A DNA stretch of 64,000 nt from Kiritimatiellota bacterium. GTDB taxonomy: Bacteria; Verrucomicrobiota; Lentisphaeria; Oligosphaerales; JAADHN01. The notes beneath the pieces were generated by a model, which saw nothing but the letters and a program-made list of their open reading frames with translations, ran no database searches and was not told where the DNA came from. A program made the position numbers and the translations under genes. The stretch's first letter is position 1; every line of letters begins with the position of its first letter. Positions 1 through 12,133 of the stretch are shown in pieces. Where the stretch lies: positions 122,624-186,623 of the forward strand of contig JAADHN010000111.1 of NCBI GenBank assembly GCA_013151865.1, written 5' to 3'.

Positions 1-608
1 GCCTGCAGAATTCGGTCGAAATCCCGGTGCGCAAACGGCTCGCCGCCCGAGAATGTAATTGAGAGCGTCCCCATTTCGGGCAGTTGCGCAAGCACGTCGA
101 GGGCCAGCGCCGTGTCAATCGGGCGCCCGGCGCCGCCGGGCGGGTAATAACAGTGAACGCATCGGAGGTTGCAGGCGGAGGTTACATCGATCTGCATGCC
201 GAAAACAGTGGGGCGTCGCTGAAAGTAATCGTAGAACCAGGCGGCGGAGTTCATCGGCACACCCACGGGGCCTCCGGCCGGCAGAATCACGGGAAAGTCG
301 TAAACGCGAGCGGACTTGCGAGCCAGTTCGTTCTCGTCGCGACCGGTCACGACGAATTTCTCGGCCTCCAGAATGGCGACAAACCGTTTGAAAGCAGCTT
401 CGACGTCAAAGCGGTGAATCCCCTCCAATTCCCTCGCAAGATCGTCGATGGCCGAGTCCAGGGTCCGCGGCGTGCGTGCCAAGCGTCGGAGATACGGTTG
501 CTCCGTCTCGTTGAAGAGGTGATCGACCTTGGTGCGCTGGTTCACCAGATAGGCGAAACCGTCGTAGAAGCGAGTGAACGAATCGTCATGCAGCTTTACG
601 AGAGTCAT
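1..608 (-). CDS. Radical SAM enzyme with N-terminal PqqD-like (RRE-type) peptide-binding domain; N-terminus complete, C-terminus runs off the left window edge
   Basis: Not in the supplied ORF track (no stop inside the window). Hand translation of the minus strand from ATG at 608 is open for all 202 codons: MTLVKLHDDSFTRFYDGFAYLVNQRTKVDHLFNETEQPYLRRLARTPRTLDSAIDDLARELEGIHRFDVEAAFKRFVAILEAEKFVVTG...VFGMQIDVTSACNLRCVHCYYPP...TLSITFSGGEPFAHRDF. CxxxCxxC (C146/C150/C153) and the GGEP motif are radical-SAM hallmarks. The first ~90 aa look like a PqqD/RRE domain (strands followed by three helices). Confidence 0.85.
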   Translation of the reverse strand, partial: MTLVKLHDDSFTRFYDGFAYLVNQRTKVDHLFNETEQPYLRRLARTPRTLDSAIDDLARELEGIHRFDVEAAFKRFVAILEAEKFVVTGRDENELARKSARVYDFPVILPAGGPVGVPMNSAAWFYDYFQRRPTVFGMQIDVTSACNLRCVHCYYPPGGAGRPIDTALALDVLAQLPEMGTLSITFSGGEPFAHRDFDRILQ

Positions 609-883
609 TCTTGTTCCGTTGTACTCGGGGCGCGGGGAACGCCGGCGGGAGAGGATCTCGGACTGAATCGACCGGGGCGGCTTTTCCTCTTCGTAGCCGT
701 CCCGCAGCGGGAGCGGGAGTGAAGGCTTGAACAACGGAACGCTGTCGAAAGCGCGGCGGCAAAAGACGGGAAAAGAGCGGACGTACCCGCGTCGGGCCCA
801 GACTTGCCCGAAGCCGGCGACGCGACGCCGTATTTCAGCTCAATCCTTCACATCGAGTCGGTGCGCCGGCCCATCGAACCGCG

Positions 884-899
884 AACCGGCGCACCGGTT
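884..899 (-). terminator. Stem-loop 11 nt downstream of the precursor stop codon (possible partial terminator or transcript stabiliser between precursor and rSAM gene)
   Basis: Perfect inverted repeat AACCGG-(4 nt)-CCGGTT. No adjacent U-run, so not a canonical intrinsic terminator. T-rich tracts (CTCTTTTCCCGTCTTTTG on the minus strand) follow about 100 nt further on. Confidence 0.3.
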
Positions 900-909
900 G
901 GCGGGCGGC

Positions 910-1128
910 TCATCCGCCGCCACCGCCGAAGATCGAAATGCCGCAGTTGGAACCGCCGTAAGACGCCCCGCCGCCACCGCCGCCGAAGATCGAAATGCCG
1001 CAGTTGGAACCGCCGTAAGACGCCCCGCCACCGCCGAAGATCGAGATGCCCCCGCCGCAGATGGCTTTCATCTCGTCGGCAGACACCGTAGTGTCCTCTG
1101 CCAAATCTGTGATCTTGATCCTGGCCAT
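910..1128 (-). CDS. RiPP/bacteriocin precursor peptide: double-glycine leader plus glycine-rich tandem-repeat core (72 aa)
   Basis: ATG at 1128 is preceded by AAAGGA 8 nt upstream. The supplied ORF 910..1323 is an upstream-extended version of this gene. Peptide: MARIKITDLAEDTTVSADEMKAICGG|GISIFGGGGASYGGSNCGISIFGGGGGGASYGGSNCGISIFGGGGG. Positions -12..-1 (VSADEMKAICGG) fit the double-glycine leader consensus LSxxELxxIxGG. High GC3. A C39-peptidase ABC exporter lies in the same locus. Confidence 0.85.
   Translation of the reverse strand: MARIKITDLAEDTTVSADEMKAICGGGISIFGGGGASYGGSNCGISIFGGGGGGASYGGSNCGISIFGGGGG
913..1050 (-). repeat. In-frame tandem DNA repeats encoding the precursor core (periods 57 and 51 nt)
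   Basis: 923-972 and 980-1029 are 50/50 nt identical. The third partial unit, 1031-1050, has 1 mismatch in 20 nt. The encoded units are GISIFGGGG(GG)ASYGGSNC. Confidence 0.9.
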
Positions 1129-1465
1129 GGGTCCGTTCCTTTCTGTCTTGCCGTGTCCGCACGGGGAACCACGGCGCTGCTCTGGTTCAACTCCAGCGAC
1201 GGCGTCTCGGAAATCCGGAGTCGACCGGCGCCGGCCCGACTTCAATCTCGCTTCCACGGGTCCGGTCGCACAAAAAACGCGCCGGCGCATTTCCGCCGAA
1301 ACCGAACGAATAATGTGCCGCAAGTTTCGTCTCCGGCACTTGGTGATACGTGGCGGCAGTTACTCCGTACCCGTCTTCAGTTCCGCTCGAAGTCGTGCGT
1401 CCTCTGGATGAGTCGGGACCGATTTCCACGGTCCACCCGACCGCATTTCGGTCCACCTTTCAATT

Positions 1466-1493
1466 AAAGTAACCAATTTGATCAATTTGTCAA
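1466..1493 (-). promoter_or_regulatory. Putative sigma70-type promoter for the precursor transcript
   Basis: An AT-rich patch in GC-rich DNA. The minus strand reads cTTGACAaattgatcaaattggtTACTTTaattg: a perfect -35 TTGACA (1488-1493), a 16-nt spacer, and -10 TACTTT (1466-1471, TAnnnT). The spacer contains the direct repeat CAAATTG-at-CAAATTG. Confidence 0.4.
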
Positions 1494-1592
1494 GTGCGCG
1501 CTGCCGGGAGACCGGTGTTTTCAAGCACAACGGCATCCGGCCGCACCGGCGTGATCGACCCGGTTCGACGCCGGGTGACGATCAGCGTTTTG

Positions 1593-2024
1593 TCATTCCT
1601 CTCCATCCAGTGCACCGCCGACGGCTTTGGCCAGCCAGTCCTGAAAAACCAATTCGCGGACCGTTTCCTTGACAGCCGGGGCGGCCATGTATGCCGCCGT
1701 GTCGGCCTCCGCCTCCAGCTTGTCCCGGAATTTGGAAATCAACAGGTTGGTTTCCAACCATTCTTCCCAGACCTCGGGGGTGAGACCGGAGATCTTGAGC
1801 CAAGCCATCGTGTCTTCCGCCTTGTTCAGTCCAGCCGCGGCGCGGGCCCCGTCGGCGGCCTTCTGCAACTCTTCGTCGCTGACCGACAAACCGGCTTCCT
1901 CGGCGGCGGCGCGGACCACCTTCCGTTGCACTACGTTACGCAGTGCAGTCGCGAACTGTCCGTTGATCCGCAGGCAGTTGAGCACCTCACCGACAGTGAC
2001 TTCCATCTCTTGGATTGCGGGCAT
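1593..2024 (-). CDS. SurA N-terminal-domain-like chaperone protein (143 aa), no PPIase domain, no signal peptide
   Basis: ATG at 2024 is preceded by AAGGAG 7 nt upstream. The sequence MPAIQEMEVTVGEVLNCLRINGQFATALRNVVQRKVVRAAAEEAGLSVSDEELQKAADGARAAAGLNKAEDTMAWLKISGLTPEVWEEWLE... aligns by eye with the N-terminal ~100 aa of the PpiC-type protein at 10092-10835 (shared SDEELQxAAD, TMAxL, GLT.E motifs). Confidence 0.7.
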   Translation of the reverse strand: MPAIQEMEVTVGEVLNCLRINGQFATALRNVVQRKVVRAAAEEAGLSVSDEELQKAADGARAAAGLNKAEDTMAWLKISGLTPEVWEEWLETNLLISKFRDKLEAEADTAAYMAAPAVKETVRELVFQDWLAKAVGGALDGEE

Positions 2025-2301
2025 GGTCTTTCTCCTTGATTTTGGCAAGCCCCGTGTTCCATTTGTGCTCCGGGCGGTCCGCCGGGGGCCCCACTTCGGA
2101 TCGCCGGGCCGGGAGCACAATAAAGAGCAGATCGATTACATTAATACAGTTTACGACGGTTTCACAAATTTGGCAACCCGGGACCAGAGGATTCTCTATG
2201 CCCCTCCCCGCCGGGACCGATGGATGTTGCGAACTTGTCCCGGCGGGACTGTCGCCCTCCCCCGAGTCCGAGCTTGTCCGCCGCCGTCGCACTTCCCGCC
2301 A

Positions 2302-3759
2302 CTACGGCATGAAAACACGCATCTCGCTGCGGAAATAAAAGATCCGAACAAGAACAAAAAGGTAATTGACCTGCGACCTCACATGGTTGAGCTTCGCGTT
2401 AAAATGGTCGGACTGAAACACCAACGTATCGAGCAGCAGACTGCGCCCGCCCCGGAGTCGGTCCAATTCCGCCTCCAAGTTCTTTGCGGTGATGTCCACC
2501 AGCTTCTCATCCAAGACGATTTCATCGGCAAGCCGTTTGAGTCTGACGAAGTCTTGGCTGAGCAGTTTTCGTATTTCATGTTCCCGATTCTTCTGGAGGA
2601 GCCGGTTCCGTTCCAGGGCGAGTTCGAGGGCCACGATCCGCTCTTGAATCGCCGTGTTCCCGACGGGCCAACTGAAATTCAATTCCACACCGATCAAGTA
2701 GTTCTGTGCGTCCAAGCCACTCACGGCGCGGACGGAATTGTCGTCATCGAAGCCGTAAACCGAGGCTTTCGCGGTCATGCCGAGACTTGGTCGGAGTTCG
2801 TCTCTGGCCTGCGTCAGGTCATAGAGCAATTGGTCCCCCTCGTTCCGAAGCGAGATCAACTGCTGGTCCCGCGCGCAAGCCAACCGGCAGCTCTCTTCCA
2901 ATGCGGGCATGGGCACTTGCGCTCTGATTCGTTCGAGATCGATGCGCGGCTTCACGTCGTCGAAAGCCCCGGTCGCGATTCTCGTGCGTACGGCGAATTG
3001 CAGTTGCTCAGCCAGGGTGCGAACCGCCTGCCTGCGCCTCAGGATGTCCTTCTCCTGTTCCAACACCACGGACTCAATCTTGTGCAGGTCGATGACGGGA
3101 ATGGCGTGCATTTCAAACTTTTCCTGGATGATCCGCAGGATTTCGCGCGAGTTTTTCAGGATTTCCTCGCCGATGACGAGATCTTGCCGAGCCTGGTAAA
3201 ACGCCAAATAGGCTTCCGCGACATCCCGAAGCACGGCGGATTCGATGGCCGCGCCGGTCTCCAGGTGGAAGCGCAACAGTCTGCGGGCCCGGGCGATATT
3301 CAATTCCGTGATGGTCCGCCCACGTCCTTTCAGGAGAGGTTGCGTGTAACTGATTCCCAATTCGGCTTGCGTCTCTTCGGCGCTGTCCGGAAACGAGAAA
3401 AGGCGGGAGGACTGGCGCGAAACCGTCATCCCCGCCGATGTTGTCCCACCGACCGAATTGAGTCGGTCGAGGCTCACGGTCCCGGAGTAGTTCCGCTGGT
3501 CACGGAGCCCGCTGAGCGCGAGTTCTCCATAGGTCCGACGGTCCCCGCTCACGTTTGACCGCAAGATCGGTTCGTAGATGGCCTGCTCCTCGACCAATCG
3601 GGCGGAAGCGCGTCGCACATCCAACTCCTGGACACGCAAGAGCTGATTCTCTCGCAACGCCTGTCGCAAGGCTTCGGCCAGAGAGAATTCCGGATTGCCG
3701 GCTGCTGCTTTGCCCATGAACACCGTCGCGCACGCGAAGAAAACCTGAAAACACGCCAC
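2302..3759 (-). CDS. TolC-like outer membrane efflux/channel protein (OMF); start uncertain (GTG 3759 or ATG 3717)
   Basis: Two-fold repeated coiled-coil/OEP-like sequence (LSLAEALRQALRENQLL..., TQPLLKGRGR..., LDLAQARDEL-type segments) of about 470-485 aa. Only the GTG at 3759 gives a hydrophobic N-terminus (ACFQVFFACATVFMGKAAAG). The part of ORF 2302..4212 upstream of that is Arg/Pro-rich junk. Confidence 0.8.
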   Translation of the reverse strand: MACFQVFFACATVFMGKAAAGNPEFSLAEALRQALRENQLLRVQELDVRRASARLVEEQAIYEPILRSNVSGDRRTYGELALSGLRDQRNYSGTVSLDRLNSVGGTTSAGMTVSRQSSRLFSFPDSAEETQAELGISYTQPLLKGRGRTITELNIARARRLLRFHLETGAAIESAVLRDVAEAYLAFYQARQDLVIGEEILKNSREILRIIQEKFEMHAIPVIDLHKIESVVLEQEKDILRRRQAVRTLAEQLQFAVRTRIATGAFDDVKPRIDLERIRAQVPMPALEESCRLACARDQQLISLRNEGDQLLYDLTQARDELRPSLGMTAKASVYGFDDDNSVRAVSGLDAQNYLIGVELNFSWPVGNTAIQERIVALELALERNRLLQKNREHEIRKLLSQDFVRLKRLADEIVLDEKLVDITAKNLEAELDRLRGGRSLLLDTLVFQSDHFNAKLNHVRSQVNYLFVLVRIFYFRSEMRVFMP

Positions 3760-4982
3760 GCGCCCGAATGCAGAAACGATGAACGGGAAAGGAGCCCTTG
3801 CGATACGAAGTGCGGTACGACAAACAACGAAAGACGGCGGAGTGCGGCGACCGTTCGAGGGGACAAACGGCAGGCGGCAGAGGCAGGAACAGCCCCGCCC
3901 GGAGAGAGCCGCGGACAGCGAACGGGGACACGCCGAATCTGAAGGACTTGCGCCTCCGACCCCGCCGTTTCTTTCCCCTGGGGCGCCGAAAGCGACGGTC
4001 GTCGCCAAGCCCCGACCGGGGCCGGTTAATCTGTCCGTGGCGTGCGTCATGAGGCGTCGGTTGGGTTCGGTGTCGGACTGGACGCAACCGGGCGTCCCTG
4101 CGGGTTCCGCGCCCCAGTGGGAACGGAGTACGCCTGATCGGTGGCATCCGGAAAATACTGGTGGCATTTGCGGAATACAAGGAACCCAACGCAAGTTCGA
4201 GCAACCGCACAATCCGATGGGGCAGGCCCCCCGTGAGGTCCGTCCGTCTCCAGGCCCGCTGTCGCGCCGTTTTGCACGAACGGTGTTCCCCGGCGCCGGG
4301 GGGGACGCGCCGTCAGCGACGCGTTACAAGTTCGAGTCCCTCGCATGCGCTGCGTACCTGGAGACCAAATTTGCATGAAGCATGAGCCATCTGCGCCAAT
4401 GCCGCTTTCAGACACCTTCAAGACATTGCTGCCGCCGCTGGCCGGGGCGGTGTTTCGATACGACCTCCTCCGGCGTTCGACGCAATGAGCCGGACTCGCA
4501 CAAACTGCGCTCCCTTGCAACGAAGTCCGTGAATGAATGAGACCCGACCCTTCTTATCTGAGACCGCAGGGCCCCCGCGAGCCTTTCGACAGAGTGGCCG
4601 TCCCATCGCGGGAGATGCGCCGGCGGGCATGTTCCAGCGCGGAAACCGCAGGCCTGCCGTCACACAGCAGCTGCCCGACGGTCTCGCCGCCCCGCGCTTT
4701 TGGAAGGGGGCGCGATCACTTGAATTCCGTCCGAAATGCAGCATACTTGAAAGTGCGGGGTCGGGGGTCGTATGCAGGCCGAATTCACCCCGCTCAGGTG
4801 CGAGCCATCTGGGTCGATGACCGGGCCGTAAAGACCGGAAAAGCAGCCGGGACCGTTTTTCGAGTCATGCAACAACTTGCCCGTGCGAAGGTTGCCTGCA
4901 CCCAGAACCGGCCCCTTCCAGGCTGCGAACGGGAACGTGCGGCACGAACTTGCAACCAGGTGTTAGAGCACACTGTTTTTTC

Positions 4983-7900
4983 ATGCAACACGCTGACCTG
5001 CTGTCTTTCATATCGGACCTCCCTCTCTTCTCGATCTACGATGAAGAGCGACTTGCCGCGTTCTTGGAGCAGATGTCCCTTGTCTCGTACAGCGCCGGGG
5101 AGGTGGTGTTCGAACAAGGCGATGCGGGGGACACTTTCTATGTGGTGTACAGCGGCCGCATCCGCATCCTCATGCGCCGGAACGGCAGCGATGTAAACCT
5201 CGGCGTCCTGCGCAAAGGCGACCACTTCGGCGAGTCTGCTCTCATCACCGACCACCCCCGCACTGCGACGGCTCGCGCTGTGGAAGACAGCGTGCTGCTT
5301 GTGGTCTCGCGCGAAGATTTCACCACCTTCCTTTTGGCGGAACCGGCACATCGCGACTACTTCGACAAGTTGATGCGCAGTGCGGCGATCGATCGGTTCC
5401 TCAAATCCACCTCGACCCTGGGGAAAGTGGGGCGCAACGAGGTGGCGGAACTGGTCCGGTGCTTCAAGCCGCAAACCTTTGGCGAAGGCGAGGCCGTATT
5501 TCGGCAGGGCTCAGTCGCCGACAAATTCTATCTGGTCGAAAGCGGGAAGCTCAAAGTCGTGCGCTGGACGGATCAAGAGCACGAAATCTTGAATTTCCTG
5601 CGCGAGGGCGACTTCTTCGGAGAGAAAGCCCTCGTGGAAGACACGACCCGGTACGCGGACGTGATCTGTCTGACGCCCTGCAAATTGTTTGCGATGCACA
5701 AAGACGACTTTGACGCGCTGATCCAGAAATCGCCGAAGCTGCGCCGTATCATCCAAGACCGCATCGAATCCTACAAAACCCCTCCTCCCATCCCCTATAA
5801 GGAGGTCATCAAGCAGGAGCTTGCCGCCCTGAAGGAGACGAAGGTGACGGCGGGGGAAGACGCCGAAAAGGCCGTGCGAGAGGACCGCGGCGCGGCGCAG
5901 AAAACCGCCCGTCGCCGTCGTTCCCGCAAGCCCGCCCGTCGGTTCCCTTTCATCCGGCAGTACGACGAGATGACGTGCGGCACCACCTGCCTTATGATGA
6001 TCTCCAGGTTCTATGGCAAGAACTTTGCCTCGGCCCGGTTGCGGGAACTGGCGCACGTGGACGTGAGCGGCGCATCGCTGGCGAACCTGGCGACGGCGGC
6101 CGAGCAACTGGGGTACACCACACGCGCCCTGAAACTGAAATACGACGGGCTTCGTTCCGTCCCGCTTCCCTGCATCGTGCACTGGCAAGGGTATCACTAC
6201 ATCGTGGTGCATAAAGTGTCGGACCGATACGTGTGGGTTGCGGACCCCGCAATCGGCTTGCGCAAGTACGACCGGGAGCACTTCGAAAAGAATTGGAGCG
6301 GCATCACCCTGACCCTGACCCCTACCGCCTCGCTGGAGGAACAGACTGACGACCGGTCTTCGCTGCGCAACTTCCTGCGGTTCGTTACCCCCCACCGGAA
6401 AACGTTGATTGAAGTCCTCATTGCTTCGGTACTGCTGAATATCTTCGGCCTGGCTACGCCCATCTTCACCCAGAATGTCGTGGATAAAGTGCTGACCCAC
6501 AACAATACATCTATGCTGAACATGCTGTTCATCGGCATGTTGCTGGTTTTGTTCTTCCGAATCATGGTCATGTTCGTGCGCCAGTACCTGATCGTCCACA
6601 TCAGCATGCAGATTGATCTGAAGATGCTCGTGGCATTCTACCGGCACATGCTCGCATTGCCGCTGGGATACTTTAAAGCTCGGAAGGTGGGTGATTTCGT
6701 CTCGCGATTCGGGGAAAACCAGAAGATTCGCGCCTTCATGACCCACACTGCCCTGAGTCTTATGTTGGACGTGGTCTTACTGGTGGTATACCTCGGAATG
6801 ATGTTTTACTACAACACCAAGATGGCCGCGTTGACGATGGTCTTCATCCCATTCGTCGCGGCAGTCACCCTGGTCTTCACGCCGATCCTCCGTCGACTCA
6901 ACATCGACGCCTTTCAAGCTCATGCGGAGGCCGATTCGCACTTGATCGAATCCATCACGGGCATCGACACGATCAAAGCCCTGCACGCCGAATCGCCTGT
7001 GCGTTGGAAGTGGGAAGACAAGTACATTCGCAGCATGAACATCGACTTCAAGCTGACCAATGCAGGCATGATGTTCAGTGCCTTCGGCGATCTGGTCGGC
7101 ACGCTCAGTGCGACCGTTCTGCTCTGGTTCGGTGCGCATCAAGTCATGGCGGGGGCCCTCACCGTCGGTGAACTGATGGCTTTCATGGCCCTGATGGGCA
7201 GTGTAATGGTCCCGGTCAACCGTGTGATCGGCGCCTGGGACGACATTCAGCAGACGCTGGTTTCAGTCGACCGCCTCAACGACGTTTTCAGCGCCAAGCG
7301 TGAGTTCGCCGACGCGGACGCCGGCCACAGCGGGGTCCCCCTGGAGGACGTGCCGTGCACAATCGAATTCAAGGACGTGTTTTTCCGTTATGGCGGCAAC
7401 GACGATCCATATATTCTCTCCAAGATCAACTTGAAACTCCCGGCGGGCAAATCCCTGGCCTTGGTCGGACGCAGCGGCTCGGGAAAAAGTACATTGGTCA
7501 AGCTGTTGGCACGTTTCTGGGACGTCACTGAAGGGCAGATTCTCATCAACGGCGTCAATGTTCGACATATCGATTTGAACTGCCTGCGGCGCATGATCGG
7601 ATTTGTATTGCAGGAGACCTTCATCTTCAACGGAACGGTTCGGGAGAACATTGCCTACGGCGAGCCGGAAATGGATTTCAGCCGAGTATTGCGAGCGGCG
7701 AAGATGGCCAATGCCCACGACTTCGTCACCACATTGCCCTTTGGCTACGACACGCGTGTCGGGGAAAGCGGCGTGCAACTGTCCGGCGGGCAAAAACAAC
7801 GCATCGGGATCGCCCGGGCACTGTATGCCGAACCCAGGGTCCTGGTCTTCGACGAAGCGACCAGTTCCCTCGATTCCGAGTCGGAGCAGGCCATTCAGAA

Positions 7901-8087
7901 GAATATGCAAGGCATTCTTGCGGACAAAACCTCCATCATCATAGCTCACCGTCTCAGCACAGTCCGGGATGCCGATGTGATCGCCGTACTGGACAATGGC
8001 GAGGTCGTCGAACAGGGCTCCCACACTGAATTGATGGAAAGCAAGGGCCTCTATCACTTCTTGGTGCACCAGCAGTTGAATCTGTGA
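4983..8087 (+). CDS. Bacteriocin-type ABC exporter: 2x cyclic-nucleotide-binding domain + C39 cysteine peptidase + TMD + NBD (1034 aa)
   Basis: cNMP phosphate-binding cassettes FGESALITDHPRTATARA and FGEKALVEDTTRYADVIC. C39 motifs QYDEMTCGTTC (Cys codon 5976-5978), HYIVVHK and ADPA. Six-helix TMD region. Walker A GRSGSGKST, signature LSGGQKQR, Walker B VLVFDEATSSLD, H-loop IIIAHRLS. ATG 4983 is chosen because the domain begins directly after it; no clear SD. Confidence 0.9.
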   Translation: MQHADLLSFISDLPLFSIYDEERLAAFLEQMSLVSYSAGEVVFEQGDAGDTFYVVYSGRIRILMRRNGSDVNLGVLRKGDHFGESALITDHPRTATARAVEDSVLLVVSREDFTTFLLAEPAHRDYFDKLMRSAAIDRFLKSTSTLGKVGRNEVAELVRCFKPQTFGEGEAVFRQGSVADKFYLVESGKLKVVRWTDQEHEILNFLREGDFFGEKALVEDTTRYADVICLTPCKLFAMHKDDFDALIQKSPKLRRIIQDRIESYKTPPPIPYKEVIKQELAALKETKVTAGEDAEKAVREDRGAAQKTARRRRSRKPARRFPFIRQYDEMTCGTTCLMMISRFYGKNFASARLRELAHVDVSGASLANLATAAEQLGYTTRALKLKYDGLRSVPLPCIVHWQGYHYIVVHKVSDRYVWVADPAIGLRKYDREHFEKNWSGITLTLTPTASLEEQTDDRSSLRNFLRFVTPHRKTLIEVLIASVLLNIFGLATPIFTQNVVDKVLTHNNTSMLNMLFIGMLLVLFFRIMVMFVRQYLIVHISMQIDLKMLVAFYRHMLALPLGYFKARKVGDFVSRFGENQKIRAFMTHTALSLMLDVVLLVVYLGMMFYYNTKMAALTMVFIPFVAAVTLVFTPILRRLNIDAFQAHAEADSHLIESITGIDTIKALHAESPVRWKWEDKYIRSMNIDFKLTNAGMMFSAFGDLVGTLSATVLLWFGAHQVMAGALTVGELMAFMALMGSVMVPVNRVIGAWDDIQQTLVSVDRLNDVFSAKREFADADAGHSGVPLEDVPCTIEFKDVFFRYGGNDDPYILSKINLKLPAGKSLALVGRSGSGKSTLVKLLARFWDVTEGQILINGVNVRHIDLNCLRRMIGFVLQETFIFNGTVRENIAYGEPEMDFSRVLRAAKMANAHDFVTTLPFGYDTRVGESGVQLSGGQKQRIGIARALYAEPRVLVFDEATSSLDSESEQAIQKNMQGILADKTSIIIAHRLSTVRDADVIAVLDNGEVVEQGSHTELMESKGLYHFLVHQQLNL

Positions 8088-8173
8088 GAAAAAGCCGCCC
8101 TGAAGAGGGGCGGCGCCTGCGGACGGAAGTTCCTTTCCTTCCGTGTCGGCTCAAACGAGAGGTACGTCGGTTC

Positions 8174-9523
8174 ATGCCGCCGGAGAAGAACACGACAAAT
8201 GACTCGCCGGAAGCTGCGGATGCGGGCATTTCCGAGGAAATGTCGTCGGAAAGTTTCTTGGTTACCGAGCAACTTCAGCGGGTTCCGAACCTGGTTGCAC
8301 GCGGGTTGATCTATATCGTGTCCCTTCTCGTGGTAACGATCCTGCTCTACACCCACTTTGTCCGGATCGACATTCTTTCCAGAGGGCAGGCAGTCGCTCG
8401 ACCCACGGCGCACAAGGTTCGAATTCTCGCCGACCGCCGGGGCTATGTCGACCGTGTGTTGGTGAAAGAAGGACAGCGAGTGGCTGCCGGCGACGCGCTT
8501 TTCGCGATCCGGTCCCGGGCGAACATTGACCGCGAAGCGCGCTACGCCGAACTGAAGATCACGATCCCGCTGAAAGAAGCTCACTTCAAACAGCGCCGGG
8601 CCCTAACGGCGGAGAAACTCCGAACCCTGCAGAATTCTTCCGCTTATCGCCGGAAGGTCCTCGCCTTGCGGAAAGAAAAGAACGCACTCGCCCGCGCCCG
8701 CGCCGAAATCGATATCCGTTATTGGACGCAACAGGTCGAAACGCTCGCCGAAAGCCTTGCCCGAGCCAGGAGCATGTTCGAAAAGAACATCACGACCCTG
8801 GAAGACTACAACGCCGCAAAGGGACGGCTCGAACACGCCAAGGCGCAACGGGATAAGTCGTCCAATGAACGCCAAACGTATCTGAAAGAAGCCGAGATCA
8901 TCGAAGCCGAAATCAAGGAGGAAGAAGCCAACCTTTCGAGTCAAACCGAAATCGTCCGGGGCGAAGGCCGCAGCATTGAGCTGGAGGCGCAAAGCACGTT
9001 GACAGCCATGCGCAACGAGATGAAGCTTTGCGAGGACATACTCTCGGTCCAGTCCCCCATCGGGACCACGGCCACGAAGCCGGAGGGCGTACTGACAATG
9101 ATCCGAACCGCAACGCCGGGCGCCATTTCGGAGTTGTTTGTCCGCGCCCCCGGTGCCTACGTGCGAGACGGCGACCTGTTGTGCACCGTGGTTCCGGCCG
9201 GCAGTCCCTTGTACATGGACATCGTCCTGGCCAATAAGGACATTGGTTTTATTACCGAGGGGATGCCGGTCAAGTTCAGGTTCGATGCATTCTCCTACAG
9301 AGACTACGGGGCGCTCGCGGGGCGGGTCGAATCCATCTCTCCGTCCGCCGTGGAAGACCCGACCATGGGGTTGGTGTACCACGTACGAGGCGTGCTCGAT
9401 CAACCCGGCTTCAAGATCGATGGAAAACTGTACCGGGTTAAACCCGGAATGACCGCCACAGCAGAACTCGTGACCGAACAAAGGACCTTGTTTTCTATTC
9501 TTGTCAGCAAACTCCGCAGGTGA
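8174..9523 (+). CDS. HlyD-family membrane fusion/adaptor protein of the exporter
   Basis: N-terminal TM helix (LIYIVSLLVVTILLY), lipoyl-like hairpin motifs (GYVDRVLVKEGQRVAAGDALF ... GAYVRDGDLLCTVVP), long coiled-coil middle, beta-barrel C-terminus. Immediately downstream of the ABC gene. GAGAGG lies upstream of ATG 8174. Confidence 0.85.
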   Translation: MPPEKNTTNDSPEAADAGISEEMSSESFLVTEQLQRVPNLVARGLIYIVSLLVVTILLYTHFVRIDILSRGQAVARPTAHKVRILADRRGYVDRVLVKEGQRVAAGDALFAIRSRANIDREARYAELKITIPLKEAHFKQRRALTAEKLRTLQNSSAYRRKVLALRKEKNALARARAEIDIRYWTQQVETLAESLARARSMFEKNITTLEDYNAAKGRLEHAKAQRDKSSNERQTYLKEAEIIEAEIKEEEANLSSQTEIVRGEGRSIELEAQSTLTAMRNEMKLCEDILSVQSPIGTTATKPEGVLTMIRTATPGAISELFVRAPGAYVRDGDLLCTVVPAGSPLYMDIVLANKDIGFITEGMPVKFRFDAFSYRDYGALAGRVESISPSAVEDPTMGLVYHVRGVLDQPGFKIDGKLYRVKPGMTATAELVTEQRTLFSILVSKLRR

Positions 9524-10091
9524 TCCCGAAAGGATCCCCAACAAGGCCGGGACGCTTCCCGACGGAACCGCCGCCGTTTTCCTGCACGACGCTGCAGTTG
9601 TCCCGCGACAACCTGAGCCGAAACACCAGGCACGCCAATTGTGGGACACGGCCCGACACCCCCGGCGGTGTCGGGAGAGTGATGTCGAGTTTTTATGCGC
9701 CTTGCACACTCCCCGCACAAGAGAACCACGTTTCTCGGCTCGCCCGGATGCACGCCCGCGGAAGCAGCCATATATTGAGCGTTGCGAAAGTTCCGTCGAA
9801 AACTGGCACAACTGGCCCCTTGATGGACGTCGACCGGGAAAAGACGTCGTGGAACGCGGCCGACCAACGCCCCGCAGCCGCAAGAACGGACTGCTTTGCG
9901 AACCGGCCCCAGGGCGCGGTCGAGCTGCCCGTGCGAAGACACCCCCTCCCATTCGGCCGCGTTCCGTCGAGGCGGAAGCAGCAGGACACAGACCGCTCAG
10001 GATTGTCGCGGCGATTGTGCGGAAGGCGCGGGTATCGCCCGTGCCCAGCTTGTTTCGAGGTGATCGGCCCCCCAACACCGGGAGATAAGTG

Positions 10092-10835
10092 ATGGAATTC
10101 AAGTATGCCCGTGGAAGCGTTACCAGCGAGGATCTCATTGGGTTGCTGGTGTTCTCGGGGCGGATGGACGCCTTGCTGAAAGAGGCCATCGAGAGGCGCG
10201 AAGTGCGGCGCAAGGCAATGGAATTGGACATCCGGGCGAGCGACGAGGAACTTCAGGCAGCCGCGGACCGGCTCCGGAAAGAGCTTGGTTTGGTCCGAGC
10301 GGACGTGACCATGGCTTTCCTTACCGGCTTCGGGCTCACGGTCGAGGACCTGCAGGAGTACTGCGAGTTCGAGGCGTTGCGGGAAAAGGTCCGGGAACGT
10401 CTGACGCCGGAAGCCAAGATCAACGAGTATTTTCTGAATTACCGTGCCGATTTCGACCGTGCCACCATCTCGATCATTACCGTCGACAGCGAGGAACTCG
10501 CCCGAGAGTTGATCATGCGGGTCGTGGAAGACGGCGAAGATTTCCACGAATTGGCGAGTGAGTATTCACTTGATGAAGGGACCCGCGAAAACGGCGGAAG
10601 GGTCGGCGCCGTCCCACGAAGCGCTTATTCGCCGGAAGTGAGCGCCAAAATATTCAACGCAGACCCGGGTGACGTGGTCGGACCGTTCTCGTTGGGCGAC
10701 CGCTCCCTTCTGATCTTGGTCGAGAAGGTGGAAAAAGGCGGGCTGACCGACGAAGCGAGGACCGCGGTCCGGGATCGGATTTATCAGGATTGGCTCCATG
10801 CATTCCTGCGCGCCGGGATCTCCGTCGCGTCCTGA
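10092..10835 (+). CDS. PpiC/parvulin-type peptidyl-prolyl isomerase with SurA_N-like N-terminal domain, no signal peptide
   Basis: GGAG lies 7 nt upstream of ATG 10092. The C-terminal half (ISIITVDSEELARELIMRVVEDGEDFHELASEYSLDEGTRENGGRVGAVPRSAYSPEVSAKIFNADPGDVVGPFSLGDRSLLILVEKV) has the rotamase/parvulin pattern. The N-terminal half is paralogous to the 1593-2024 product. Confidence 0.8.
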   Translation: MEFKYARGSVTSEDLIGLLVFSGRMDALLKEAIERREVRRKAMELDIRASDEELQAAADRLRKELGLVRADVTMAFLTGFGLTVEDLQEYCEFEALREKVRERLTPEAKINEYFLNYRADFDRATISIITVDSEELARELIMRVVEDGEDFHELASEYSLDEGTRENGGRVGAVPRSAYSPEVSAKIFNADPGDVVGPFSLGDRSLLILVEKVEKGGLTDEARTAVRDRIYQDWLHAFLRAGISVAS

Positions 10836-11095
10836 GGCGCGGAAGGAGGCCGACGTGGCGGGCACGGAGGAAATCGGATGACGGCCTGGGAAAAAGCCGA
10901 CCGCGGAGAACTCTGGCGCCGTCCACCGCGGCTCCCGCCGCCCTTTCGGACGCCCCCTTTCTTCAGCGCATGAGGCGGTAACGGCAACGCGCCCTTGAGG
11001 CGTCCGTTCGATTCACGGCGGGCTGAGCGGTCGCGCGTCCGGGCAGAAGGCCCGGCAACTCGCGATTGGAACGCCGGTGAAGGCGAGGAAGAACC

Positions 11096-11326
11096 ATGGC
11101 AAGAATCAAGTTTGAAGATTTGGAGGAAGTCACGGCGACAAAGGCAAAGATCAACCTTGGCGGCCTGCTTCACGAGACAGCCGTGAACGGACGCCAATTC
11201 GTTGTCAATCGGCAGGGCAAACCGGTGTCGGTAATCCTCAGCTACAACGACTACCGCGACCTGCTGGCTGAGCTGGAGCGGTTGCGCCGAATACGAGGAC
11301 CCGACACGCTCCCATCTCTTCGGTAA
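11096..11326 (+). CDS. Phd/YefM-family antitoxin-like protein (76 aa), no adjacent toxin gene
   Basis: GAGGAAG SD. VTATKAKINLGGLLHETAVNGRQFVVNRQGKPVSVILSYNDYRDLLAELE matches the Phd/YefM N-terminal fold pattern (compare YefM [47 protein letters not shown]). Confidence 0.7.
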   Translation: MARIKFEDLEEVTATKAKINLGGLLHETAVNGRQFVVNRQGKPVSVILSYNDYRDLLAELERLRRIRGPDTLPSLR

Positions 11327-11626
11327 AGCAACGACTCGGGACGCCGCCCCCCGGCCAAGCCGCCGGTCCCATATCCTATTCTCGGATGCCGGCCAAGAAC
11401 ACACGCCGAGGCGCGCACATGGAACATGCGCATGGGGCGACTTGTGAGTCTCGTGCGATCGACGTTTCGGTTCGCCCGCCGAGAGGCACGGCCCTCCCGC
11501 ACCGCGGGATCGCCCGCCACGGGCGAACGAATGACCGGACTGTGCGTTCGTCACGGAAATACGCGCGCCCGAGCGGGCATGGGTGAGTCCTGAAGTTTAT
11601 TTGTGAACACAAAAGGCACCTCGACG

Positions 11627-12133
11627 ATGACCGAGAACGGCGTTCGACCCGAGCGACATCGCCCGGCCTGGAACGAGTATTTCCTCAAGTTGGCTATGCT
11701 CGCCTCGGAGCGGGCCACCTGCCCGCGCATGCACTGCGGCTGCGTGCTGGTCCGCGACCGCTTCGTCCTGGCAACGGGATACAACGGCTCATTGCCCGGA
11801 GCACCTCACTGTGACGAGGTCGGTTGCATGGTCGTCAACGGACACTGCGTCCGCACGAACCACGCGGAGATCAACGCCATCTGTCAAGCCACACGTCACG
11901 GTGTGATCCTGACCGGCGCCACTGCGTACGTGACCAACATGCCCTGCACGGCCTGCGCCAAGGCCCTGATCGCCGCCGGAATCGAGCGGGTCATCGTGTT
12001 CTCCGAGTATCACGATACACTTGCAGAACGCTTTTTTAAGGAATCCGGCGTGCTCTTGGAACGTCTCCCGATGCCCGACCGGGAAATTCACTACGATTTG
12101 GACGCTTTTGCGTCTGCCGCCCCGCCTGTCTGA
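11627..12133 (+). CDS. dCMP/CMP deaminase (ComEB-like zinc deaminase)
   Basis: Zinc-binding motifs HAEINAI and PCTACAKAL. The WNEYFLKLAMLASERATC N-terminus is typical of dCMP deaminases. Confidence 0.85.
   Translation: MTENGVRPERHRPAWNEYFLKLAMLASERATCPRMHCGCVLVRDRFVLATGYNGSLPGAPHCDEVGCMVVNGHCVRTNHAEINAICQATRHGVILTGATAYVTNMPCTACAKALIAAGIERVIVFSEYHDTLAERFFKESGVLLERLPMPDREIHYDLDAFASAAPPV

What the first reader, a model, noticed from the sequence alone, without database searches (positions are those of the whole stretch)
910..1128. Precursor with textbook double-glycine leader and a 48%-glycine, 2.5x tandem-repeat core kept nearly identical at DNA level
Seen: the 26-aa leader ends VSADEMKAICGG (consensus LSxxELxxIxGG). 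The 46-aa core is GISIFGGGG-ASYGGSNC / GISIFGGGGGG-ASYGGSNC / GISIFGGGGG. It has 22 Gly, 7 Ser, 2 Cys (plus one Cys at -3), 3 Phe, 2 Tyr and no charged residue. DNA units 923-972 and 980-1029 are 50/50 identical, which implies recent duplication or gene conversion, and the Gly run differs in length between units (4/6/5). Inference: the repeat is either the recognition unit for iterative rSAM chemistry (Cys-to-acceptor thioethers or aromatic C-C crosslinks at F/Y are the obvious candidates), or a slippage-prone cassette that generates length variants. Gly-rich double-glycine-leader peptides recall class II microcins, but those are not rSAM-modified.
Basis: partly seen in the sequence, partly recalled or inferred. 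Interest (0 to 1): 0.9.

Follow-up and report, generated by a model that had tools for sequence, protein, structure and literature searches.

The report
Glycine-rich repeat peptide with radical-SAM maturase
This is a real, selected gene for a small secreted peptide whose repeated Cys-Gly-Ile-Ser units are almost certainly modified by the neighbouring radical-SAM enzyme; it belongs to a rare, unstudied branch of a large, uncatalogued family of exported bacterial peptides, and its chemistry is unknown.

Summary
Window 910..1128 (minus strand) encodes a 72-aa peptide with a 26-aa double-glycine leader and a 46-aa core that is 48% glycine. The core has 2.5 tandem units, and 50/50 bases are identical between two of them. 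It is a true gene: against its ortholog in a related genome, 17 of 20 differing codons are synonymous, and the ribosome-binding site is conserved.

The same-strand neighbour is an RRE-radical SAM-SPASM enzyme, cut by the window edge; its full length is NOY81796.1 from a Kiritimatiellota MAG. Around it lie genes for a cNMP-gated C39 peptidase/ABC exporter, HlyD, TolC, two SurA/PpiC-like proteins and a Phd/YefM-like protein.

The leader (MARIKIxDL...GG) defines a large metagenomic family with hypervariable cores and no curated model. Only about ten members carry the invariant unit [S/N]-C-G-I-S, with 1-5 copies each. All five loci with this enzyme clade have such a peptide directly upstream. Phe and Tyr are not conserved, so aromatic crosslinks are unlikely; a Cys-based thioether within each unit is the best guess (about 0.4) and is untested.

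It is a new variant of a known kind (radical-SAM RiPP). Interest is moderate, not 0.9.

The parts
910..1128 (-). Precursor peptide gene, 72 aa. Leader is codons 1-26 (1051..1128), core is codons 27-72 (913..1050), stop is 910..912.
   Evidence: Translation. Composition and codon-position GC. Against the L133 ortholog, 17 synonymous and 3 nonsynonymous codon differences in the first 43 codons. Homologs P0001-5, P0011 and P0012.
914..1050 (-). Tandem repeat, period 57 (51 nt in the first unit). It encodes GISIFG(4-6)ASYGGSNC twice plus a terminal GISIFGGGGG. The family-invariant unit is [S/N]-C-G-I-S.
   Evidence: TRF. 50/50 identity of 923-972 and 980-1029. Unit identity matrix, W1-W2 50/51 against W1-R1 40/51. 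Invariant C43 G44 I45 S46 in alignment A1.
1136..1143 (-). Shine-Dalgarno-like GAAAGGAA, 7 nt upstream of the ATG.
   Evidence: Sequence. The same GAAAGGA lies upstream of the L133 ortholog.
859..896 (-). GC-rich hairpin (11-nt perfect arms, 16-nt loop) starting 14 nt after the precursor stop. Possible attenuator between the precursor and the enzyme gene; function not shown.
   Evidence: Inverted repeat I2. It appears in the MFE fold, but the whole region is not significantly more stable than shuffles, z = -1.36.
1..608 (-). First 202 codons of an RRE-radical SAM-SPASM peptide maturase, cut by the window edge. Identical to residues 1-202 of P0161 = NOY81796.1 (480 aa).
   Evidence: CxxxCxxC at C146/C150/C153 and an invariant 7-Cys SPASM pattern. 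PF04055 and PF13186 in P0161, PF05402 PqqD in 31 of 49 aligned relatives. AF2 model pLDDT 92.2. Best solved folds are CteB, SuiB and SkfB.
1272..1299 (-). Terminator-like hairpin plus T-run between the SurA_N-like gene and the precursor. It suggests the precursor has its own promoter.
   Evidence: Consensus scan only; the number of such sites is not above the shuffle expectation.
1593..2024 (-). SurA_N-like 143-aa protein (NOY81798.1), no signal peptide. A conserved partner encoded just upstream of precursors in this leader family.
   Evidence: PF13624 at 26.9 bits, just under its 27.2 cutoff; TIGR04500 at 53.6 bits. tblastn hits in 25 loci. Accession.
2302..4212 (-). TolC-type outer-membrane channel. 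The ORF is listed from 4212; a likely start is the Met at 3717.
   Evidence: PF02321 OEP 1.6e-21, TIGR01844 1.5e-13. Start position.
4983..8087 (+). Exporter (NOY81800.1) with two cyclic-nucleotide-binding domains, a C39 peptidase, ABC membrane domains and an ATPase. The peptidase keeps Q326/C332 (QYDEMTCG), His (GYHYIVV) and Asp (VADPA).
   Evidence: PF00027 x2, PF03412 8.7e-38, PF00664, PF00005. TIGR01193 at 530.5 bits passes its 523.85 cutoff. Motifs read. Accession.
8084..9523 (+). HlyD-family membrane fusion protein; its start overlaps the exporter stop by 4 nt.
   Evidence: TIGR01843 1.1e-43, PF13437. Syntenic in L026, L033, L058, L079, L131 and L133.
10089..10835 (+). PpiC/SurA-like 248-aa protein, no signal peptide. 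Related to the TIGR04500 'peptide maturation system' family but below its cutoff.
   Evidence: PF13616, PF00639, PF13145; TIGR04500 at 78.6 bits against a 180 cutoff. Syntenic in 16 loci.
11096..11326 (+). Phd/YefM-fold 76-aa protein (NOY81803.1). Its first 9 residues, MARIKFEDL, copy the start of the precursor leader.
   Evidence: PF02604 at 38.6 bits, starting only at residue 11. 78% identical to the L133 protein that sits directly upstream of the precursor there. Homologs in 30 loci.

Best explanation
The ORF is the precursor of a ribosomally made, post-translationally modified, secreted peptide (a RiPP, bacteriocin-like). The steps below are marked as shown or inferred.

1. Shown by sequence and comparison: the 72-aa peptide is translated and is under purifying selection.
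2. Inferred: its leader (MARIKITDL...VSADEMKAICGG) is bound by the N-terminal PqqD-like recognition domain of the downstream radical SAM/SPASM enzyme. The cytoplasmic SurA_N-like and PpiC-like proteins probably help as chaperone partners.
3. Inferred: the enzyme works iteratively, once per [S/N]-C-G-I-S unit. My leading guess (about 0.4) is a short-range thioether from the unit's Cys sulfur to a carbon of a residue in the same unit, for example Cys(i) to Ser(i+3), as in streptosactin.
4. Inferred from homology: the C39 peptidase domain of the cNMP-gated ABC exporter cuts after Gly26. The exporter, HlyD and TolC then carry the uncharged, glycine-rich 46-aa product across both membranes.
5. The repeats expand and contract by ordinary unequal recombination. 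Relatives therefore carry 1-5 units, and units are homogenised within a genome.
For: Translation and selection:
- 17 synonymous against 3 nonsynonymous codon differences versus L133, with a conserved SD.
- Third-position GC (0.77) like the window's real genes.

Pairing with the enzyme:
- In all five independent loci where DNA upstream of this enzyme clade is visible, a CGIS peptide is the upstream same-strand neighbour. These are the window, L001-3, L006, L131 and L133 (enzymes 53-72% identical; L006 holds only the first 13 residues of its enzyme, so its identity was not measured).

Enzyme type:
- CxxxCxxC plus an invariant 7-Cys SPASM pattern.
- PqqD domain in 31 of 49 full-length relatives.
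- AF2 pLDDT 92.2.
- Best solved folds are the RRE-bearing peptide maturases CteB (thioether), SuiB and SkfB (thioether).

One unit, one event:
- C, G, I and S are invariant in every unit. The number of Cys in the core is 0, 1, 2, 3 or 4 in different members, so pairing between Cys residues is not conserved.

Thioether precedent:
- GggB makes Cys25-Ser28 and Cys31-Gly34 sactionine rings (PMC8172795; PMC9389541).
- The different rSAM that follows the CGIS peptide P0005 scores best against thioether-forming families (SCIFF, PapB, GggB, QhpD).

Export:
- TIGR01193 passes its cutoff; C39 catalytic motifs are present; HlyD and TolC are adjacent.
- The leader has GG at -2/-1, I at -4, M at -7, E at -8 and V at -12.

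Chaperone role:
- The TIGR04500 protein MirC is an obligatory partner of a RiPP enzyme in a cluster with a PCAT (PMC13097080).

Repeat dynamics.
Against: - No mass spectrometry, expression or activity data exist for any member.
- The enzyme fits no curated family: best 116 bits against a 400 cutoff; StsB 89 against 625; PapB 64 against 340; AlbA 66 against 850. Fold similarity to SuiB, a C-C crosslinker, is as good as to CteB. Thioether chemistry is therefore only a guess.
- Six of six precursors whose core starts with GIS have a Cys at leader position -3. A thioether there would tie leader to core across the cleavage site, which fits poorly.
- In the distant relative L131 the cluster also has two B12-radical SAM C-methyltransferases. 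The window's cluster is cut at the enzyme, so further modifications cannot be excluded.
- The closest peptide homolog on a short contig (P0001, L004) is followed by a different rSAM.
- No immunity gene was identified, and the product's biological role (toxin or signal) is not known.
Confidence: 0.72

Rival explanations
1. The precursor, enzyme and export route are the same, but the radical SAM enzyme does something other than a thioether at each C-G-I-S unit. Examples are epimerisation of Ile or Ser, conversion of Cys into a heterocycle (as radical SAM SbtM does), a C-C or C-O crosslink, or a reaction in which Cys only anchors the substrate to an auxiliary Fe-S cluster.
For: The enzyme is in no curated thioether family. 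Fold matches include SuiB (C-C) and EpeE (epimerase) as well as CteB and SkfB. SbtM is among the weak hits at 59.6 bits. The leader Cys(-3) that co-occurs with a core starting GIS fits an 'anchor' role better than a permanent crosslink.
Against: An invariant Cys in every unit, next to an RRE-rSAM-SPASM enzyme, is the usual signature of sacti/ranthipeptides. Short Cys(i)-Xaa(i+3) rings have direct precedent. Nothing here points to any specific alternative.
Confidence: 0.35
2. The peptide is an unmodified class II microcin-like bacteriocin that only uses the exporter. The radical SAM enzyme serves another substrate.
For: A glycine-rich, uncharged core and a GG leader with PCAT/HlyD/TolC are what class II microcins look like. 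Most members of the wider MARIKIKDL leader family in the fetched loci have no SPASM enzyme of this clade nearby.
Against: The peptide-then-enzyme order is kept in five loci despite 49-76% peptide identity and rearranged surroundings. This enzyme clade was found only next to CGIS peptides among 133 loci. The enzyme family carries a peptide-recognition (PqqD) domain. The invariant four-residue unit is hard to explain without an enzyme reading it.
Confidence: 0.06
3. It is a multi-core precursor: each repeat is cut out to give several copies of one small modified peptide, as in cyanobactins.
For: Units are near-identical and the copy number is variable.
Against: No second protease is present in the window cluster, L131 or L133. 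There is no conserved cleavage signal between units. The first and last units are truncated differently. Known radical SAM repeat substrates such as PapA and NxxcA stay in one piece (my own knowledge, and PMC9389541).
Confidence: 0.06
4. The repeat is a contingency locus: slippage in the GGN runs or the 57-nt units is selected to generate length variants within a population.
For: Gly runs of 4/6/5 and a perfect 50-nt duplicate. Copy number differs between two related genomes.
Against: The Gly runs use mixed GGC/GGT/GGG/GGA codons, so homopolymeric triplet tracts are short. All observed differences keep the reading frame and the unit intact, as expected from ordinary unequal recombination under purifying selection. 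No population data are available.
Confidence: 0.05
5. It is not a gene: a chance ORF in GC-rich DNA, or the antisense of the 246-aa plus-strand ORF 727..1467.
For: High-GC DNA gives many long spurious ORFs. None of the tried start variants of the peptide is in the protein collection.
Against: 17 synonymous against 3 nonsynonymous changes versus the ortholog, and a conserved SD. Family-wide conservation of the leader. Third-position GC is elevated as in real genes on the minus strand and flat on the plus strand.
Confidence: 0.02

Closest known systems
Streptosactin (GggA/GggB), a type 2 sactipeptide
   Same: An rSAM/SPASM enzyme makes short, un-nested rings from Cys(i) to Ser or Gly(i+3). The C-x-x-S spacing equals C-G-I-S. 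The precursor is glycine-rich.
   Different: It is Gram-positive and quorum-regulated, has a 14-aa product with two rings, and uses a separate protease. GggB is not among the 25 best NCBIfam hits of the window enzyme. Chemistry is not shown here.
Freyrasin (PapA/PapB) and NxxcA/NxxcB: repeat-motif thioether RiPPs (ranthipeptide type)
   Same: One rSAM/SPASM enzyme acts iteratively on a short Cys-containing motif repeated along the core (PMC9389541; PapA repeat structure from my own knowledge).
   Different: The motifs are C-x3-D and N-x-x-C, with Asp or Asn as acceptors. No acidic or fixed Asn acceptor at those spacings is present here. PapB model scores 64 bits against a 340 cutoff.
CteB (thermocellin maturase), SuiB, SkfB: solved RRE-rSAM-SPASM/twitch maturases
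   Same: Best structural matches over the whole length, including the N-terminal recognition domain.
   Different: Sequence identity is 16-18%. The three do different chemistry, so the fold does not tell the reaction.
ACGX-repeat peptide system (TIGR04340 enzyme), uncharacterised
   Same: An rSAM/SPASM enzyme named for a target with a repeated Cys-Gly-containing tetrapeptide. It is among the better weak hits at 90 bits. The nature of its target is recalled from memory.
   Different: Score is far below the 400 cutoff. The precursor hit no NCBIfam model at E<=1.
Class II microcins (e.g. microcin V/L/N)
   Same: Double-glycine leader, glycine-rich core with few charges, and C39-ABC/HlyD/TolC export in a Gram-negative (export genes).
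   Different: Microcins are unmodified or siderophore-tagged and enterobacterial (PMC10233263 abstract). Here there is a dedicated radical SAM maturase, the host is Kiritimatiellota, and the exporter has cNMP-binding domains.
Rosaritide cluster (MirA-D): a TIGR04500 SurA-like partner protein with a PCAT
   Same: A cytoplasmic SurA/PpiC-like protein is encoded with a RiPP enzyme and a peptidase-ABC exporter. MirC is required for modification.
   Different: There the enzyme is an ATP-grasp ligase. Here the SurA-like function is split over two genes that score below the TIGR04500 cutoff, and the role is untested.
TIGR03975 B12-radical SAM C-methyltransferase RiPP clusters (PoyC as a member is from my own knowledge)
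   Same: Relatives of this leader family, and the CGIS cluster L131, carry one or two such enzymes.
   Different: None is visible in the window; the cluster is cut at the left edge. tblastn of L131 proteins found none in the 64 kb.

Membership tests
Double-glycine-leader peptides processed by C39 peptidase-ABC exporters | Leader ending in GG with hydrophobic residues at -4, -7 and -12 and an acidic residue at -8 | tested here: met
   The leader ends V(-12)SADE(-8)M(-7)KAI(-4)CGG. The generic model TIGR01847 passes for relative P0004 (16.0 against 15.7). For the window peptide no model reaches E<=1.
Double-glycine-leader peptides processed by C39 peptidase-ABC exporters | A cognate ABC exporter with a catalytically complete C39 domain in the same cluster | tested here: met
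   PF03412 8.7e-38; TIGR01193 at 530.5 against 523.85. Gln/Cys/His/Asp motifs were read.
Double-glycine-leader peptides processed by C39 peptidase-ABC exporters | Cleavage after GG and export of the core | not testable with these tools
   Needs biochemistry.
RRE-dependent radical SAM/SPASM peptide maturases | CxxxCxxC radical SAM cluster motif | tested here: met
   C146/C150/C153 are invariant in 49 sequences. PF04055 at 92 bits.
RRE-dependent radical SAM/SPASM peptide maturases | C-terminal SPASM domain with the 7-Cys pattern | tested here: met
   PF13186 at 35.3 bits. C366, C384, C424, C427, C433, C436 and C456 are invariant. This part lies outside the window and is known from the identical public protein P0161.
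RRE-dependent radical SAM/SPASM peptide maturases | N-terminal PqqD-like recognition element | tested here: met
   P0161 itself is below Pfam threshold, but 31 of 49 full-length aligned relatives hit PF05402 (best 2.7e-10). The AF2 model shows strands followed by helices at residues 3-89. Foldseek aligns more than 460 columns to CteB and SuiB. Direct sequence tests on the domain alone were inconclusive.
RRE-dependent radical SAM/SPASM peptide maturases | Conserved adjacency to its substrate gene | tested here: met
   Five loci (and the window).
Sactipeptides / ranthipeptides | Cys donors in the core | tested here: met
   There is one invariant Cys per unit.
Sactipeptides / ranthipeptides | Maturase belongs to a characterised thioether-forming family (AlbA, StsB, PapB, SCIFF, GggB, QhpD) | tested here: not met
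   StsB 88.8 against 625, PapB 64.4 against 340, AlbA 66.4 against 850.
Sactipeptides / ranthipeptides | S-to-C(alpha/beta/gamma) thioether in the product | not testable with these tools
   Needs MS/NMR.
Class II microcins | Unmodified (or C-terminally siderophore-modified) core, enterobacterial | tested here: not met
   A dedicated maturase is conserved next to the peptide. The host is a Kiritimatiellota MAG.
Triceptides / glycine-rich-repeat (GRR) cyclophane peptides | Conserved aromatic-X-X three-residue motif whose third residue has a beta-carbon | tested here: not met
   FGG and YGG end in Gly. The aromatic positions are not conserved across the family. The precursor hits no NCBIfam model.
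TIGR04500 'putative peptide maturation system protein' | Score above the curated cutoff (180 bits) over the full three-part profile | tested here: not met
   78.6 bits (profile positions 115-327) for 10089..10835, and 53.6 bits (positions 93-199) for 1593..2120. They are related but split and divergent.

The most novel reading that the evidence does not exclude
The enzyme may install a modification not yet described for radical SAM RiPPs on a Cys-Gly-Ile-Ser unit. The Cys, including the one at leader position -3, would then serve as a handle rather than as a permanent crosslink partner. The system may also handle its precursors in a new way, through a Phd/YefM-fold protein that carries a copy of the leader's first nine residues, together with two cytoplasmic SurA-like chaperones. 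This module is shared by a very large, uncatalogued family of hypervariable secreted peptides in anaerobic sediment bacteria.
Probability: 0.25. Interest if true: 0.8.

Novelty: new variant of a known kind. Interest (0 to 1): 0.6.

Why it matters
Radical SAM RiPPs are a main source of new peptide chemistry and of narrow-spectrum antimicrobials.

- This finding gives a clean, small test system: one 72-aa substrate with 2-3 identical target units, and one enzyme whose full sequence is public (NOY81796.1).
- Neither the substrate nor the enzyme belongs to any curated family.
- The host phylum, Kiritimatiellota, had no hit in a full-text search combining the phylum name with RiPP, radical SAM and bacteriocin terms.
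- The finding also exposes a much larger system. More than 120 metagenomic stretches were found before the search hit its limit, and 371 cluster representatives matched. The system comprises the leader MARIKIKDL...GG, a cNMP-gated exporter, HlyD, two SurA/PpiC-like proteins and a leader-mimicking Phd/YefM-like protein. Cores are hypervariable and often sit in tandem arrays, frequently with B12-radical SAM methyltransferases. This would be a rich target for genome mining.
- If the chemistry turns out to be an ordinary sactionine, the finding is one more family. If not, it is new enzymology.

Tried and rejected
1. Exact look-ups of the window peptide, of four longer start variants and of four overlapping ORFs found nothing in the collection. 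L133's correctly called peptide is absent too, so this says little about annotation.
2. The first homolog search with the 202-aa enzyme fragment found only weak hits. The word index missed the family. The full-length L131 enzyme later found 341.
3. Genome contigs: the scan with the enzyme alignment confirmed nothing. My second scan used a leader pattern with one N too many, so its zero result is invalid and must not be read as absence.
4. The window's source contig could not be fetched through the exporter, P0161 or P0277. What lies beyond the enzyme remains unseen. L133's contig also ends 37 nt after the enzyme.
5. A single-sequence AF2 model of the enzyme fragment was useless, at pLDDT 36.
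6. hhalign of the N-domain against one PqqD-bearing protein, and a PDB profile search, gave nothing.
8. Rfam on 1..12000 gave no hit.
9. Literature searches for the leader string, for TIGR03975/TIGR04500, for cNMP-PCAT RiPPs, for Kiritimatiellota RiPPs and for YefM with RiPP found no description of this system.
10. Rejected: triceptide/GRR membership, because the aromatic positions are not conserved and X3 is Gly.
11. Rejected: a conserved disulfide, because odd and zero Cys counts occur in cores.
12. Rejected: the long repeat proteins P0010, P0013, P0019 and P0126, which are spurious profile hits.
13. Rejected: the 246-aa plus-strand ORF, because its GC is flat across codon positions.
Full report
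**1. The observation**

Window 910..1128 on the minus strand translates to MARIKITDLAEDTTVSADEMKAICGG followed by GISIFGGGGASYGGSNC, GISIFGGGGGGASYGGSNC and GISIFGGGGG, then a stop. The core is 46 aa with 22 Gly, 7 Ser, 2 Cys, 3 Phe, 2 Tyr and no charged residue. A further Cys sits at leader position -3. Bases 923-972 and 980-1029 are 50/50 identical, and the Gly runs are 4/6/5.

Tandem Repeats Finder gives period 57, 2.2 copies, 93% matches and score 225. A GAAAGGAA ribosome-binding site lies 7 nt before the ATG. GC by codon position is 0.49/0.63/0.77 for the ORF and 0.46/0.46/0.77 for the leader alone. Its third-position GC matches the 0.63-0.81 range of the 41 genes I called in the window. 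The 246-aa plus-strand ORF that overlaps it is flat at 0.64/0.63/0.61.

**2. It is a real gene**

The closest relative I could fetch is L133 (GCA_024276635.1, contig JAJRWV010000219.1). It encodes MARIKISDLAEDAKVSADEMKAICGG followed by four full units and a terminal one, 109 aa in all. Over the first 43 codons, 20 codons differ between the two genes. Seventeen of these are synonymous, and the three replacements fall in the variable middle of the leader. The GAAAGGA upstream is kept. That is purifying selection on the peptide.

**3. Surroundings**

- On the same strand, 301 nt downstream, a gene starts at 608 with MTLVKLHDDSF..., carries CNLRCVHC and runs off the left edge.
- A perfect 11-nt-arm hairpin lies just after the precursor stop.
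- Upstream on the same strand are a terminator-like hairpin, a 143-aa SurA_N-like protein (1593..2024) and a TolC-type channel (2302..4212).
- Divergently transcribed are an exporter with two cNMP-binding domains, a C39 peptidase, ABC membrane domains and an ATPase (4983..8087). TIGR01193 'peptide cleavage/export ABC transporter' passes its cutoff for this protein.
- After the exporter come HlyD (8084..9523), a PpiC/SurA-like protein (10089..10835) and a Phd/YefM-fold protein (11096..11326).
- The C39 domain keeps its Gln, Cys, His and Asp motifs.
- From 11.6 kb onward the genes are housekeeping: dCMP deaminase, a two-component system, DnaJ and GrpE.

**4. Source organism and the full enzyme**

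The 202 residues visible in the window are identical to the start of P0161. This is NOY81796.1, 480 aa, 'MAG: radical SAM protein [Kiritimatiellaeota bacterium]', on a 208,253-bp contig. The neighbours are NOY81798.1, NOY81800.1 and NOY81803.1 on the same contig.

The family has 341 members with E<=1e-10, mostly 470-500 aa and aligned end to end. In a 49-sequence alignment the three radical SAM cysteines and seven SPASM cysteines are invariant. All 49 hit PF04055 and PF13186, and 31 hit PF05402 (PqqD, the RiPP recognition element). RefSeq names the Desulfosarcina ovata member a 'PqqD family peptide modification chaperone'.

An AlphaFold model built on that alignment has pLDDT 92.2 and pTM 0.91, with an N-terminal strand-then-helix domain. 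Its best solved matches over the whole length are CteB, SuiB and SkfB, the three RRE-bearing peptide maturases with structures. No NCBIfam equivalog comes close: the best is 116 bits against a cutoff of 400. The enzyme is therefore an RRE-radical SAM-SPASM peptide maturase of an uncharacterised clade.

**5. The leader is common; the core is rare**

A degenerate DNA pattern for the leader was validated on the window and on ten loci. The roughly 170 peptides extracted share MARIKIKDLPKDxKISxEEMKKVxGG. Their cores are unrelated to one another and often sit in tandem arrays. A profile search of 1.84 billion cluster representatives gave 371 hits. Curated models see only a sub-threshold generic GG leader, and the leader string is in no paper of the library.

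tblastn of the window's proteins against the loci shows a conserved module. It consists of the cNMP-C39-ABC exporter, HlyD, a PpiC-like protein, a SurA_N-like protein, a Phd/YefM-like protein and one or more precursors. B12-radical SAM C-methyltransferases (TIGR03975) are frequent neighbours.

Cores with the unit [S/N]-C-G-I-S occur in only a handful of members:

| Member | C-G-I-S units (leader-junction C-GG-GIS in brackets) |
|---|---|
| Window peptide | 2 (+1) |
| L133 ortholog | 4 (+1) |
| P0001 | 1 (+1) |
| P0002 | 3 (+1) |
| P0003 | 3 (+1) |
| P0004 | 2 |
| P0011 | 2 |
| P0005 | 1 |
| P0012 | 0 (+1) |
| 91-aa ORF in L131 | 1 |

A partial peptide upstream of P0002 in L006 also carries a unit. 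C, G, I and S are invariant. The next two positions vary (I/Y/V, then F/L/P/N), and the 'ASY' Tyr becomes Phe or is absent.

**6. Peptide and enzyme travel together**

The enzyme clade is 53-72% identical to the window's (L006 holds only the first 13 residues of its enzyme). It was found in the window, in L001-3 (after P0004), in L006 (after P0002, where only the first residues lie before the contig end), in L131 (after P0011) and in L133. In every case it lies directly downstream of a CGIS peptide. It was found next to no other core among 133 loci.

Two CGIS peptides on short contigs are followed by other radical SAM enzymes. After P0005 comes one whose best matches are the thioether-forming SCIFF, PapB, GggB and QhpD families. 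After P0001 comes an unclassified fragment.

L131 shows a fuller cluster: a B12-rSAM C-methyltransferase, the precursor, the SPASM enzyme, a translationally coupled 91-aa ORF ending PGSNCGISILGA, a second B12-rSAM C-methyltransferase, and then the SurA/PpiC/HlyD/exporter set. Whether the window's cluster has such genes beyond its left edge cannot be seen. The 64 kb that is visible has none.

**7. Mechanism**

Shown: the gene is selected; it is paired with an RRE-rSAM-SPASM enzyme; a complete GG-leader export set is present.

Inferred:
- The enzyme's N-domain binds the leader.
- The enzyme acts once per unit. One invariant Cys per unit, together with core Cys counts of 0-4, argues against Cys-Cys pairing and for chemistry inside each unit.
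- The C39 domain cuts after Gly26, and the exporter, HlyD and TolC secrete the product.
- The two signal-peptide-less SurA/PpiC-like proteins act as cytoplasmic partners. MirC, a TIGR04500 protein, is required for a RiPP enzyme in a cluster with a PCAT (PMC13097080).

For the reaction itself I favour a short thioether, at about 0.4. Cys(i)-Ser(i+3) is exactly what GggB makes in streptosactin (Cys25-Ser28 and Cys31-Gly34). However, neither the sequence nor the fold of the enzyme singles out thioether chemistry.

One fact fits a permanent crosslink badly. All six precursors whose core begins with GIS have a Cys at leader position -3, giving C-GG-GIS. None of the three whose core begins otherwise has one.

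**8. The repeats**

Units are more alike within a genome than between orthologous positions. W1-W2 share 50 of 51 aligned bases and R2-R3 share 54 of 57, but W1-R1 share only 40 of 51. This indicates recent duplication or gene conversion in each lineage, always in frame. It supports 'copy number varies' but gives no sign of programmed slippage. The glycine runs use mixed codons.

**9. Comparison and verdict**

In kind, this is a radical SAM-modified, double-glycine-leader RiPP. That kind is known. Neither the precursor nor the maturase belongs to any curated or published family that I could find. The repeated C-G-I-S unit is not one of the characterised radical SAM motifs. The accessory set, and especially the leader-mimicking Phd/YefM-like protein, is unusual.

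I rate it a new variant of a known kind with interest 0.6. It is real and worth an experiment. The leader and export half is ordinary, and nothing yet shows that the chemistry is new.

Noticed in passing
window 11096..11326 (+); also L133 9039..9242, L131 1227..1418 (-), and 30 loci: A Phd/YefM-fold protein of 63-76 aa is a conserved member of the cluster, usually about 100 bp upstream of the first precursor. Its first 9 residues (MARIKFEDL) copy the start of the precursor leader (MARIKITDL). The Pfam domain begins only at residue 11, so this is an added tag. Synonymous codons differ, so the conservation is at protein level. No toxin partner is next to it. Its role is unknown; it could be a regulator, a leader mimic or a chaperone.
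   Followed up: partly
window 1051..1059 (leader codons 24-26) and 1042..1050 (core codons 1-3); L133, P0001, P0002, P0003, P0012: A Cys at leader position -3 occurs in 6 of 6 precursors whose core starts with GIS, and in 0 of 3 whose core starts otherwise. C-GG-GIS therefore imitates the internal C-GIS unit across the predicted cleavage site. This is unexplained.
   Followed up: partly
L011-L130 (e.g. L026 5576..10572, L034/L046, L047/L080, L127): The leader MARIKIKDLPKDxKISxEEMKKVxGG heads a very large metagenomic peptide family. Cores are unrelated to one another (Pro-rich, GCGCMGMxQD, ...AVAGVRG tails, helical Q/N-rich ones and others), often with 2-4 different precursors in tandem. The module is exporter, HlyD, PpiC-like, SurA_N-like, Phd-like. 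No curated model or paper was found.
   Followed up: partly
L131 1633..8434: A distant CGIS cluster has two TIGR03975 B12-radical SAM C-methyltransferases (516 and 555 bits) flanking the precursor and the SPASM enzyme. A 91-aa ORF overlaps the enzyme's stop by 4 nt and ends in PGSNCGISILGA. This may be a second substrate with a different, long N-terminal region.
   Followed up: partly
L001 1663..4931: A resolvase and a Tn3-family transposase lie immediately upstream of the P0004 precursor and its enzyme, hinting that the peptide-enzyme pair moves on transposons.
   Followed up: no
window 9524..10088: There is a 566-bp gap between HlyD and the PpiC-like gene, against 54 bp in L133. No frame has coding-like codon-position GC, and there is no Rfam hit. 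Its content is unexplained.
   Followed up: partly
window 727..1467 (+): A 246-aa ORF antisense to the precursor has flat GC across codon positions and is not coding. Such an ORF could displace the small real gene in automatic annotation. None of the variants I tried is in the protein collection.
   Followed up: yes
L133 11443..11480: The related genome's contig ends 37 nt after the enzyme gene, so the far side of this cluster is unseen in both close relatives. This may reflect an assembly break at a repeat.
   Followed up: no
window 4983..5900: The exporter carries two N-terminal cyclic-nucleotide-binding domains, as do its homologs in L033, L058, L131 and L133. This suggests that secretion or processing is gated by cAMP or cGMP.
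   Followed up: no
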